Shown here: positions 5,603 to 10,455 of the stretch, piece by piece
How positions within the stretch are numbered: the first letter of the stretch is position 1
How the letters are laid out: each line of letters opens with the position of its first letter
DNA from: Hydrolagus affinis
Lineage: Eukaryota
Direction of reading: 5' to 3'
Length of the DNA stretch: 64,000 nucleotides
NCBI GenBank assembly: GCA_012026655.1
Contig: JAAILG010000316.1
Span: forward strand, 1-64,000
Made by a program: the position numbers and the translations under genes
Notes under the pieces: model-generated
Databases searched by the model: none
Seen by the model: the letters and a program-made list of their open reading frames with translations, nothing else
Told to the model about the DNA's origin: nothing

Positions 5603-8392
5603 AGGATTTGATGTCTTTTTTTAAAACTTCCTACTGAAGTATATCGGTAGAAACTTCCATTCTTGTTTCCGCACAGTCTGACAAGTAAACATTTTAATTA
5701 GATGTGATTTGTATCCGTTCAAGCATAAATGGAGGGGTGGGGGGGGTGGGGGGAAAGCAAAAAGAACTTGGCAATAGCGTCTTAAAACATCCAGTAACTT
5801 AAAACAGGAATTTTGTGAATGTTTTCAATATTTTTGTGGTAAAGGAAGTATCTAAAAAAAAACTGAAGAAAGCATATTTCTGGGGAACAATCTTTACTGA
5901 TTTAAGTTGATGTTGGCACCAAAAGTGTTCAATGATACTTTTTAGCAGAAATAAAAACGAACCAAGGTAAAAAAGGTTTTCAAAACAGCTGGTCCTATTT
6001 AAAATGCTTTAAGCTGCATAAACGCTAATAAACATGGTCTACCTTGATGGTATCATGTATGTAATTACGTACTCATTTTGTTTGGGGTGCTTTTGAATAT
6101 AATTTCACAATCACTTTTCACTGATTTGTAGACATGGGATTTTGTACATACTGGCAGCATTTTCCAGCTTTATTTGTTTTTGTTGAGGTGTGAATTGCAT
6201 TCAAGAAATTAGGTACTACATTGGGGGGAAAAGAAATCCTAACACTATTACTCGGCAGTAAGCCATCTGAATTTCATATGAATTTGACATTTTAAGTTGT
6301 GAGTTTTAAAATTACCATAATAAGCGACTTATGTGATGTTTAAATTGACAGTAGGGGGCAGTCTTTACACATCCTTTTCTTTAAGAAAAGTAAAGATACA
6401 GAATACCGACAAATGCCAGGCTTCCTTAATCTTTCCCTTGCGTGGACTAGACAGGCTCTGTGAAAAATATATCCTGCTCCAGAAGATAGCAAACTTGATG
6501 TTGAAGCAGTTTTTGTGCAGTGTCAGTGTTTTAATAATCTTGTTTTTTTAATTTTAACTGAAAAAAATTGAATGCCAGTGTTCATGACTGTAAAACTCTA
6601 ACATTTTAGAAGGCTTTTTTGTTAATATTTTGAAATCGATCAAGTTAAATGCATATGTTTCTTTATCTTTTCCATTAGACACCATGACAATCCCAATGGA
6701 TTTCTGAATTTTTGGGATCAACAAAATATTAATAAAGTTGAGGGTCACAAGTATATTCAGGAAACAACAGATGATACCCTGTTCTCTGACAGGTTGCTTA
6801 ATGGGCTTGTTTTTTGCAGTACATGTTTGTTTGTTTTTTGTCTTCCATTATCACAATGTGTACGTGCTTTCTGAATAAGATTAGATGTTAGCCTAGATCA
6901 GTTGGAAACATTCTTGGTTCTGATTCAGAAGGTTTTTGGGTTCAAATTCCATGCCGTTAAAGATTCTATGGCACCGTTTGCAAAGAGAAATATGTTTTCC
7001 TGATGTCCTGTTCAACAACCTCCCAGATAAGATGGGTCATTTGCTTCATAGCTGTTTGGGACATTTCTGGCTGCAAATTGGCTGCAAATTTTGCCAACAA
7101 ATACACACACAATCCCTGCACTTTACCATAGAATGCAGTGAAGCGTTTTGAGACGTCTAAGCGTAAGGTGTTATATCAAATCTAAGAATCATTAATATAA
7201 ATTCAAGCCTGAATATTCATCAATGTTATTTTTTTCAACTAGTTGTATTATGTTCCTCCCTGTCCACAATTGAAGTTTGTGATATATTTCTGTCTTTTAT
7301 GTTGAGGCAAGGCACATTGTTTTGTGTATCATTTTGCTGATTATGGACACCAGCAATATGCTTCCATTCCTCTGCACACCTTAACCACTTGGTAGGAAGT
7401 GCAGATAACAGCCCAATTGAGAGTTCATCACCCTGCGAGAAACCATTAGGTCTTCTCTCTGCACCTCCCCTTTGTCAAGATCAAGATTTTACCATGTGGT
7501 ATAGAATTGACGTAAAATAGTTGGATGCCTTGCCCCAAAATAGCCAAAACGTTGGCACAATAACTATTGTGCATTTTTAACTAAAGACCATTTTTAAAGT
7601 GCTAATATTGAAATGTTAGATTCTAACCTCTACAAGGTTACGATGCCTATGCTTTACGCAATGAGCTACTTGATGTGAGGCAAACACAACAGCTAGTCTG
7701 AACCAGTTATGCCCGGCAAACAGCAATGAAATGATTAACCGATTAATCTGCTTTTGATGAATTTGGATGAGGAATATTCACCAAACGCCCAAGAACTCTC
7801 CGTTCTTCCTTAGTTCAATATAAAATATTCACAAATTCCTTCAAGTGCCCACAGTCTGAACCAACTGGGAATTGCATGAGAATTCCACGCTCTGGAATAG
7901 TACTGTCTTTTTAAGAAAGTACATGATTTATAGATTTCAATCTTTAATAAAATGCAAAATGCGGGGCTGAAAATGTGTTTAGGAACAATGCTCCCACAGT
8001 GAATATTCAGGCTCCCACAAATAAGAATAAAGCAAAACGTTTACATTTTGAAATTTCTTATTGGTTCAATTTTCCTTGAAGATGGAACCTAATACAATCT
8101 GTTGAATCTCTGCTCTCATTTGTTTTTTTTAAATAATGCGAGCCCCACTCATGAAAATTTTATGTGGTTGTATGGTAATAATAATTGTTTTGTGTTCCAT
8201 ATGTGCTAAAGTGATACTCAATGCTGCTGCATTTCTTTGATGTTTCTATTTAAACAGTAACATGTTTGCCATTGAGAATACGTGGCCGTGTTTTTTTTTA
8301 AAAAGTACAGTATTGCAAATTCAAATGGATGAAATGTTTAGTTGCGTTCTGAACTTTATTAACAATCAGCATTTTTGTTTTGCCTCCTGAAG

Positions 8393-8521
8393 GTGAGGTT
8401 AGTGAGATCTTCTCCACCAGGTTCCCAGTTCAAAGACACTTTTCAGGAAACTTACCTGCTCTATAAAAGGTACCAGATGGTTATCCACAAGGACCCTCCT
8501 GAAAAAGCAACCGAATCACAG
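8393..8521 (+). CDS. ATE1: ATE1 mutually exclusive exon 7a (129 nt)
   Basis: cctgaag|GTG AGG TTA...TCA CAG|gtcaga. Translates [43 protein letters not shown], versus human [43 protein letters not shown]. Phase 0/0. Not present in the ORF track. Confidence 0.95.
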
Positions 8522-8543
8522 GTCAGAATAAGATGCAACTAAT

Positions 8544-8580
8544 TCAGAAATAGTTAGCGGTAAAGCAACCAGTTAAAGGA
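8544..8580 (+). promoter_or_regulatory. Intronic RNA-pairing element downstream of the exon 7a donor (R2-like)
   Basis: Complementary to 10977-11032 (14-bp perfect core plus extensions) and alternatively to 10130-10147. Confidence 0.6.
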
Positions 8581-8791
8581 TCCTCACTTTGCTTCAAGAC
8601 AAATTGACCTTTTTCTAATTTGTCATTTTACTGATAGATTGTGTTCAATCTGTTCGCTTAGAGATTTTCAAATAAAGACACTAAGTCACTGAGTGTCTGT
8701 GTTAGTGTGTGTGTACAACCAGCGTTTTAATGTATGGCAGCTATTCTTGGTTTCATTAAAACTTTGCCTCATAATTTTTGGTAAATTATTT

Positions 8792-9072
8792 ATAATAATA
8801 ATCATCCTTGCATTTGGTATAGCGCTTTTCACTTCTTCTAGAAGTCTCAAAGCGCTTCACAGAATATACTATCAAGTGAATTGATTGTATATTTGTGGGT
8901 GAAATACAGCAGCCAATTGCGCACAGCAGTATCGAACAAACAGTCATGAAAAATGTCCAATTTATTATTGTTTGATTTTAAGGGATTATTATCAGGTGGA
9001 GTAAGGAAACTTGTCCAGGTTTTCACCCTGCCTGGAATCAAACCACCCTAACCACTGAGCTGCAGGACTCCA
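8792..9072 (-). mobile_element. Near full-length SINE, antisense, in the 7a-7b intron
   Basis: Reverse complement of the family consensus, running from (AAT)n ATCCTTGCATTTG to CAGGACTCCA. Confidence 0.9.
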
Positions 9073-10194
9073 CTAAACGGATAGTTTATAAGAGAATTAG
9101 ATAGTTTATAAGAGAGCCCTACTCACTTGGATAAGAAAATCCTTGGATGCAAGTAAATGAGCAAATCTATCTCATTACAATAATATTGGCCTCTTTGTTA
9201 TGCCCAAACTGTGTATATACAATTTAATCCAATTTTATTGGAAAATCGCTGTGGCATCTTAATGCAGTCTGATGAAATGTTTGATTAATCCTTCCACTAT
9301 AATTGAATACATTGAAACTTAATGTGGCTATTTGCAAATTCTGTGGCTGGCATTTCAAAAGTGAATAGAATCACTTTTTAAAATTTGAATAGAGACAGTA
9401 GTCAAACTTGAATTAAGTATTCTTTTTTTCTGTTGTAAAAATATTTCATCTGTACGTCTTAAAATAGTCAATATTATTTGGTTTTGTAATATTGAATGAC
9501 CAAATATTTGTGTTTAATCATTTATGCCATTAAATAATGAGTGTGTTACCTACTTACTGTAGGAATGGATCTCTCATTTTAAAAACAATAAGGACTTAGT
9601 ACAAGCTTGTTGATCAGGTTAGGTAATAGTCAAATAATTTGGAGCAAAATTGCTCCAATTTGTTGACAGTTGGGTTTAGTTCGGGCGAGCTCTGAGCAAG
9701 CACAATTAGGTGCATGTGGCTGTCTGTTAATGGCAACCTCTGGTTAGCATTTTAATATTTAAATTTTAATGTGCAAACTGGCACTTGAACAAGACTGAAA
9801 AGCTGAAAGGATTGGCAGGTCCTCAGTTCTAGTTTTGGCAGTGATCTCCAGCGCAGCTTACTTCAGGATAGAAAGACAGAAACTGTCGTACGATATTTTC
9901 ACAGCAATTGAATTTTATATTCAGATTCAGGATCAGCAGTCAAGCTGTTTGTGGTGGTTCACCTAGCAACTAGGCCGAGTTGATTGGAAACTCGATTGAA
10001 TGTGTTGATAAGCAGGTAGCACTGGCCTGTCCGAAACTCTAACCTACAATTTGAGCATTAACTTTTTTGTACGTACAACACCCAAAGGAATATTACTCAA
10101 CCAAATTGTACGCCTAGTACCTTAATATGTCCTGCAATTGGTTGCTTGTGGATTGAAAATAGCTCCATTTATACAGGCTTTTATGAACTGGATA

Positions 10195-10226
10195 TGGAGG
10201 AGAACCAGCACTAACTTTACCTTCAG
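10195..10226 (+). promoter_or_regulatory. Intronic docking element complementary to both the 7a and 7b acceptors (R3-like)
   Basis: TGGAGGAGA-ACCAG-CACTAACTTTACCTTCAG pairs with 8387-8416 and with 10321-10350. Confidence 0.85.
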
Positions 10227-10326
10227 TGGTTTAAAAAAAAGTCCTTTTAAGATGACTTCCATTTTCCATTGTAAAAGTTTTTTCTGTGATTGCTTTGAAA
10301 ACTCATGTGGATCTCCTGCTCTGAAG

Positions 10327-10455
10327 GTGAAGCTAGTGCCTGTCTCCTCCGAGGATCCAGATTTCACTGAATCCTTTAAGCAGTCAGCGACTTTGTATGC
10401 CAAGTATCAGATGGTTATACACCGCGATTCCCCTGATGAATGTAGTGAATCAGAG
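10327..10455 (+). CDS. ATE1: ATE1 mutually exclusive exon 7b (129 nt)
   Basis: ctctgaag|GTG AAG CTA...TCA GAG|gtactt. Translates VKLVPVSSEDPDFTESFKQSATLYAKYQMVIHRDSPDECSESE. Same length and phase as 7a, and paralogous to it (shared YQMVIH motif). Confidence 0.95.

What the first reader, a model, noticed from the sequence alone, without database searches (positions are those of the whole stretch)
8387..10350. One intronic docking site pairs with the acceptors of both mutually exclusive ATE1 exons
Seen: 10195-10226 (UGGAGGAGA-ACCAG-CACUAACUUUACCUUCAG) pairs with the 7a acceptor region 8387-8416. That helix is 18 bp (2 G-U), an internal loop, then 9 bp (1 G-U). The same element pairs with the 7b acceptor region 10321-10350 over 19 positions (1 G-U, 1 mismatch), then 8 perfect bp. 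It can mask only one 3' splice site at a time. Established: human ATE1 7a/7b splicing uses competing R1-R3 and R3-R4 pairings. Inference: this module is conserved in a probable cartilaginous fish and so dates from the jawed-vertebrate ancestor. It would constrain codon choice in the first 8 codons of both exons.
Basis: partly seen in the sequence, partly recalled or inferred. Interest (0 to 1): 0.7.

Follow-up and report, generated by a model that had tools for sequence, protein, structure and literature searches.

The report
Chimaera copy of ATE1 splicing switch
In a chimaera-like cartilaginous fish, one intron segment of the ATE1 gene is complementary to the starts of both alternative exons 7a and 7b, so it likely works as the same either-or RNA switch already proven in human ATE1, which would make that switch as old as jawed vertebrates.

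Summary
Observation confirmed exactly. 10195-10226 pairs with the 7a acceptor (27 bp, -40.1 kcal/mol) and the 7b acceptor (26 bp, -41.6). It is the best sense-strand partner of both in 64 kb (next best -30, -31), and 0 of 301 intron shuffles reach it. The gene is holocephalan ATE1 (7a 93% identical to Callorhinchus). The mechanism is published for human ATE1 (R1/R3/R4; Kalinina, PMC7797038). New here: (1) the same layout in a cartilaginous fish, where that paper said the origin could not be tracked; (2) the helices lie mostly in coding sequence (24-40 exon nt, 6-9 intron nt); (3) a second helix, 8544-8580 with 10977-11032, has the human R2/R5 topology over only 2.4 kb. Blocking it in silico flips the fold from 7b-masked to 7a-masked, the direction seen in human. 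Alone that helix is weak (11 of 256 shuffles). RNA reads from one sample cover 7a about 6-20 times deeper than 7b. Not shown: nucleotide homology to human R3, compensatory changes, junction counts, codon constraint. The scan earlier noted an analogous toggle in a protist gene, none at this locus. Verdict: new member of a known kind, interest 0.38.

The parts
4310..4549 (+). ATE1 exon 6 (3' end exact, GAG|GT; 5' limit approximate)
   Evidence: tblastn with Callorhinchus ATE1; donor read
8387..8416 (+). R1-like arm: last 6 intron nt (with the AG) plus first 24 nt of exon 7a; can extend to about 8382-8433
8393..8521 (+). ATE1 exon 7a, 129 nt, phase 0
   Evidence: RNA depth
8544..8580 (+). R2-like arm just behind the 7a donor (candidate)
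   Evidence: no substitution listed at 8555-8602 in run X1
10195..10226 (+). R3-like docking site, pairs with either acceptor; can extend to about 10184-10230
10321..10350 (+). R4-like arm: last 6 intron nt plus first 24 nt of exon 7b; can extend to about 10318-10366
10327..10455 (+). ATE1 exon 7b, 129 nt, phase 0
10977..11032 (+). R5-like arm about 520 nt behind exon 7b (candidate partner of 8544-8580)
26266..26298 (+). ATE1 exon 8, 33 nt; the 7b-8 intron is 15.8 kb

Best explanation
The intronic segment 10195-10226 is complementary to the 3' splice sites of both ATE1 exons 7a and 7b and likely acts as the chimaera counterpart of human R3, predicted to mask one acceptor at a time so that only the other exon is spliced in. 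Shown: the complementarity, that both helices cover the AG and exon start, and that they share the same dock bases. Predicted by folding: while R4 is not yet transcribed, the dock pairs with 7a; once 10977-11032 is made, it pairs with 8544-8580, which is compatible with dock-7b but crosses dock-7a, so the fold settles on 7b masked and 7a free. Blocking that outer helix returns the dock to 7a and frees 7b. Inferred: the outer helix is the R2/R5 equivalent that sets the 7a/7b ratio, and the module is inherited from the jawed-vertebrate ancestor.
For: The dock is the top partner of both acceptors in 64 kb; 0 of 301 shuffles reach it. 7a and 7b are only 13/24 identical over their first 24 nt, yet the dock pairs 21 and 20 of them, using a one-base register shift in the distal helix and a U opposite the G/A difference at codon 2 (sequence). 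Duplication alone does not explain that. Whole-region folds give two states: dock-7b plus outer helix (-692.9), or dock-7a (-667.7 with R4 blocked, -670.7 with R5 blocked). This is the direction measured in human, where breaking R2R5 favours 7b. The order R1<7a<R2<R3<R4<7b<R5 with a crossing R2-R5 helix is the human topology. Other exclusion mechanisms do not fit the sequence: the 1,805-nt intron rules out steric hindrance, 129-nt exons keep frame so there is no NMD, and both donors are ordinary GT sites. In one RNA sample (X3, X4), exon-scaled depth is about 8 and 21 on 7a, 1.4 and 1.0 on 7b, 10 and 22 on exon 8 (my arithmetic bins), so most transcripts carry 7a without 7b. Common residue swaps in relatives at codon 2 (R/K) cost under 0.5 kcal/mol against this dock.
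Against: No nucleotide alignment to human or other vertebrate R3, so no compensatory change was seen. Human R1 and R4 are described as upstream of the exons and involving the polypyrimidine tracts; here intron-only pairing is weak (-12.8 and -5.4). The outer helix alone is marginal (11 of 256 shuffles as stable); two substitutions in run X1 (8551, 8554) fall in its outer arm and the partner bases were not seen. Its partner lies 0.5 kb behind 7b, whereas human R5 is about 28 kb from R2. No exon-exon junction was listed, because repeats filled that table. 12 of 38 chondrichthyan protein clusters, including Callorhinchus X1, are models with both exons; so are 26 of 82 from other vertebrates, mammals included, where double inclusion is nearly absent in human RNA-seq. 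Some residue changes in relatives (7a L3V, 7b S8R/F/L) would weaken this dock by 3-6 kcal/mol unless it co-varies. Equilibrium folding of 2.7 kb ignores proteins, kinetics and pseudoknots.
Confidence: 0.8

Rival explanations
1. The switch is functional but not homologous to human R3: cartilaginous fishes built their own, exon-facing dock, for example from an inverted copy of the exon start, converging on the human solution.
For: The helices are mostly exonic (24-40 nt), unlike the described human arms. Spacings differ: dock to R4 94 nt vs 51 in human, R1 to dock about 1,780 vs 952. The reverse complement of the dock reads like a hybrid of the two exon starts. Related structures arose independently in BRD2 and BRD3 (title in listing).
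Against: Same gene, intron, side and five-element order as human. Human elements are reported as conserved across vertebrates. Both acceptors share the 10 nt around the AG, the likely common core.
Confidence: 0.12
2. The complementarity is a relic or side effect, and exon choice is set mainly by proteins; the dock contains an ACUAAC motif that could serve as a branch-point-like or STAR-protein (QKI/SF1) site.
For: ACTAAC at 10210 inside the dock and ACTAAT at 8538 are the only two such motifs in the intron (the motif's link to QKI/SF1 is recalled). ZFR, ILF2 and ILF3 affect ATE1 exon choice and fidelity in human cells.
Against: The motif is exactly what pairing with the 7a start requires. Four AG dinucleotides lie between it and the 7b acceptor AG, against use as a distant branch point. 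A relic would not keep near-equal -40 kcal/mol helices to two exon starts that are only 54% identical. The DZF proteins are themselves proposed to act through the duplexes.
Confidence: 0.06
3. Chance complementarity with no role.
For: The helix limits were picked after inspection.
Against: z about -8 for both acceptors at the same site; 0 of 301 shuffles; control acceptors reach only -25 to -28; the same arrangement is proven in the human ortholog.
Confidence: 0.02

Closest known systems
Human ATE1 exon 7a/7b module R1-R5 (Kalinina et al., NAR 2021, PMC7797038; main text read, figures and supplement not available)
   Same: Orthologous gene and 129-nt exon pair; one intronic element between the exons pairs with either 3' splice site; similar energies (human -35.9 and -33.2 in PMC8052449 Table 1); a second helix that crosses R1-R3 and encloses 7b.
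   Different: Helices here cover 24-40 exon nt and only 6-9 intron nt; the 7a-7b intron is about twice as long; the R2/R5-like helix spans 2.4 kb, not 28 kb, and its 3' arm is near 7b, 15 kb before exon 8; nothing is tested experimentally.
SCN-alpha exon 5a/5b ISRE1/ISRE2 (PMC12772994; passages read)
   Same: A splicing-regulatory RNA helix at duplicated exons traced from human to a holocephalan; precedent for this depth of conservation.
   Different: One helix that tunes the ratio; not a dock competing for two acceptors.
Dscam1 docking site/selector system (described in PMC7797038; PMC12962786 listing only)
   Same: One docking element with competing partners enforces mutually exclusive exons.
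   Different: There, pairing selects the paired exon among many; here pairing is predicted to mask the paired exon of two.

Membership tests
ATE1 R1/R3/R4 competing-structure module | Tandem homologous 129-nt exons 7a and 7b in the ATE1 ortholog | tested here: met
ATE1 R1/R3/R4 competing-structure module | One element in the 7a-7b intron, shortly before 7b, complementary to both acceptor regions through the same bases | tested here: met
ATE1 R1/R3/R4 competing-structure module | Both helices cover the 3' splice site | tested here: met
   AG at 8391-8392 and 10325-10326 lies inside the proximal helix
ATE1 R1/R3/R4 competing-structure module | R1 and R4 similar to each other and lying immediately upstream of the exons | tested here: inconclusive
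   10 identical nt span both acceptors, but pairing is mostly exonic; how far the human helices enter the exons could not be seen
ATE1 R1/R3/R4 competing-structure module | Sequence homology with human R3 and compensatory substitutions | not testable with these tools
   No relatives' genomes held; human sequences are only in figures and an unreadable supplement
ATE1 R1/R3/R4 competing-structure module | 7a and 7b are spliced mutually exclusively | tested here: inconclusive
   7a much deeper than 7b in one sample; no junction counts; double-exon gene models exist
ATE1 R1/R3/R4 competing-structure module | Disruption raises double inclusion; compensation restores it | not testable with these tools
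   needs minigenes or antisense oligonucleotides
ATE1 R2/R5 ratio module | Helix between the 7a-7b intron (upstream of R3) and the 7b-8 intron that crosses R1-R3 | tested here: inconclusive
   Best non-repeat helix between the two introns, correct topology and in-silico effect, but 11 of 256 shuffles match it
ATE1 R2/R5 ratio module | Ultra-long range (about 28-30 kb) | tested here: not met
   Span about 2.4 kb; no stronger non-repeat partner near exon 8

The most novel reading that the evidence does not exclude
The whole five-element ATE1 switch, including the ratio-setting R2/R5 helix, dates from the jawed-vertebrate ancestor, so R2/R5 began as a short-range helix and did not arise to bridge the expanded mammalian intron. 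In chimaeras the dock reads up to 13 codons into both exons in different registers, so one intronic RNA element co-constrains the coding sequence of two paralogous exons.
Probability: 0.35. Interest if true: 0.6.

Novelty: new member of a known kind. Interest (0 to 1): 0.38.

Why it matters
The human ATE1 switch is a standard example of competing RNA structures in a vertebrate gene. Its authors wrote that the origin of R1, R3 and R4 could not be tracked and suggested that R2/R5 evolved to offset intron expansion. An intact layout in a holocephalan (split from other jawed vertebrates about 450 My ago, abstract listing of PMC6238376) makes both points testable by alignment, and gives a compact 2.7-kb natural version of the switch for minigenes. 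The mechanism itself is known, and such switches now look common in human exon clusters (119 clusters), so a specialist would be interested but not surprised.

Tried and rejected
Relatives' genomes: none held for this assembly. Run search listed no holder on record as RNA. Laying four runs on 8000-27000 was dominated by SINE-like repeats, so no exon junction appeared among the 15 joints shown, and per-base differences were shown only up to 10049. Per-base conservation of the dock and direct junction counts remain open. Other R2/R5 candidates were rejected: 9673-9701 with the exon 8 acceptor (-24.8, no better than background); 9815-9855 with 25273-25310 (partner lies in a 16-copy repeat); 8782-9073 pairings (repeats). 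Human R1-R5 sequences or exon coordinates were not found in text: supplement unreadable, IRBIS paper has no ATE1 mention, coordinate search uninformative, two papers cite ATE1 only in references. No report of the ATE1 structure in cartilaginous fish appeared in the 20 rows listed for each (of 32, 22, 1,223 and 26 hits); Supplementary Fig. S1 and S11 of PMC7797038, unseen, may include fishes. Amino-acid conservation could not separate RNA from protein constraint (104 7a and 46 7b peptides from 120 proteins; 8 rows dropped because exon 7 or exon 8 was not recognised). Steric hindrance, NMD and U2/U12 incompatibility were rejected from the sequence.

Full report
Gene and organism. Exon 7a (8393-8521) translates to a peptide 93% identical to Callorhinchus milii ATE1. 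tblastn with those proteins places exon 6 (ending 4549), 7a, 7b (10327-10455), exon 8 (26266-26298) and later exons at about 50.6 and 52.5 kb, all on +. The assembly is 1.11 Gb. This is a holocephalan-like cartilaginous fish. Both alternative exons are 129 nt and phase 0, separated by a 1,805-nt intron.

The observation. Among 15,992 sense tiles, the dock is the best partner for both acceptors, about 10 kcal/mol ahead of the next. The acceptors of exons 8, 9 and 10, cut the same way, reach only -25 to -28, and 0 of 301 intron shuffles reach the real values. The local hairpin has z = -5.06. Both helices can extend to about 38-40 pairs.

Why duplication alone does not explain it. The first 24 nt of 7a and 7b are 13/24 identical, no more than the rest of the exons (72/129 overall). 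The dock still pairs 21 and 20 of those bases, through G-U pairs and a one-base register shift in the distal helix. The codons in use rank 39th and 69th of 20,000 random synonymous recodings for pairing strength. This shows a fit down to third positions but not which side adapted. At protein level, residues 1-8 of 7a are invariant in 12 of 12 distinct chondrichthyan peptides and residues 1-7 of 7b in 11 of 11. Across all vertebrates sampled the first 8 are 0.93 (7a) and 0.90 (7b) conserved against 0.90 and 0.75 for the rest. Codon constraint therefore stays untested.

A second helix. Scanning the 7a-7b intron against the 7b-8 intron, the best non-repeat duplex joins 8544-8580, just behind the 7a donor, to 10977-11032, about 520 nt behind 7b. 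It includes 14 consecutive Watson-Crick pairs. Alone it is marginal: 11 of 256 shuffles match its -33.8. In run X1, a relative about 90% identical in introns, no substitution is listed at 8555-8602, but two fall in the outer arm (8551, 8554); an aligned piece of X1 starts at 10956. In the 8330-11060 fold this helix forms together with dock-7b at pair probabilities near 1. With R4 not yet made, with R4 blocked, or with this R5-like arm blocked, the dock pairs with 7a instead. The model is therefore a two-state toggle that the outer helix tilts towards exon 7a.

Expression. In the single RNA sample with raw reads (X3, X4; two substitutions in 7a relative to the window, so the same or a close species), reads fit + strand transcription. 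Exon-scaled depth is about 8 and 21 on 7a, 1.4 and 1.0 on 7b, and 10 and 22 on exon 8 (my arithmetic from 634-nt bins). Most transcripts there carry 7a without 7b, which fits the predicted bias and caps double inclusion at roughly 5-17%. It is one sample at low depth, and no junction row was visible. X1 contigs break at the 7a and 7b acceptors, which may reflect spliced forms entering there (inference). Against strict exclusion, 12 of 38 chondrichthyan protein clusters are double-exon models, but so are 26 of 82 from other vertebrates, while human RNA-seq shows almost no double inclusion.

What is known. Kalinina et al. (PMC7797038; parts 1-5 of 7 read; figures and supplement unseen) showed by compensatory mutants and antisense oligonucleotides that R1 and R4 compete for R3, and that R2R5 sets the ratio, its loss favouring 7b. 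They describe the elements as conserved across vertebrates, state that the origin of R1, R3 and R4 cannot be tracked, and suggest R2R5 arose to counter intron expansion. PMC8052449 (passages and supplement row) gives human spreads of 952, 51 and 27,856 nt. The window has the same order and crossing topology, with spreads of about 1,780, 94 and 2,400 nt. It differs in having mostly exonic helices, whereas human R1 and R4 mutations touch the polypyrimidine tracts. PMC12772994 (passages) is a precedent for a splicing helix kept from human to elephant shark. The age of the exon pair itself is disputed: after the chordate radiation, Bilateria, or listed among convergent cases. A preprint (passages) implicates ZFR, ILF2 and ILF3; another (passages) finds switches in 119 human clusters. 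The 2020 preprint of the ATE1 paper and one review were seen as passages.

Verdict. The feature is real and most likely the ortholog of a known switch (0.8 that it works this way; descent from the same ancestral element is inferred from position and topology, not alignment). The additions are its presence in a holocephalan, the exon-facing helices and a short-range R2/R5 candidate. My listed searches showed no report of this in cartilaginous fish, but an unseen supplement may cover fishes. New member of a known kind; interest 0.38.

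Noticed in passing
L003:90-2518 (G000:C61461), L004 (C97262), L006 (C49332:1900-2058): A second, divergent ATE1-like gene (about 40% identical to ATE1). Matches are annotated as ATE1-like in Callorhinchus and a sawshark; all 4 models carry a single exon 7, closer to 7a (49%) than 7b (33-39%), and its acceptor pairs poorly with the dock (-24.9). A possible outgroup for the exon duplication. The contigs end within 400 nt of that exon, so a second copy is not excluded.
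   Followed up: partly
window 10209-10226: The dock itself reads like a compact 3' splice site: a branch-point-like CACTAAC, a short pyrimidine run and CAG. A possible cryptic acceptor or decoy that pairing would hide.
   Followed up: partly
window 8538-8543: ACTAAT 17 nt behind the 7a donor, next to the R2-like arm; a possible STAR-protein site (motif assignment recalled).
   Followed up: no
window 26230-26265: The exon 8 acceptor lacks an adjacent pyrimidine tract: about 30 mixed, CpG-rich nt ending in AAAG lie between the tract and the AG of this 33-nt exon.
   Followed up: no
window 20123-20142 and 21296-21315: Perfect 20-bp inverted repeat 1.15 kb apart (with further complementary bases at 20171-20182 and 21335-21346) in the 7b-8 intron; probably a transposon end pair.
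   Followed up: no
window 8782-9073, 12153-12424, 16379-16662 and others: About 30 copies of a SINE-like repeat in both orientations; one in the 7a-7b intron can pair with inverted copies in the 7b-8 intron (-50 to -58 per 40 nt) and could also loop out 7b.
   Followed up: partly
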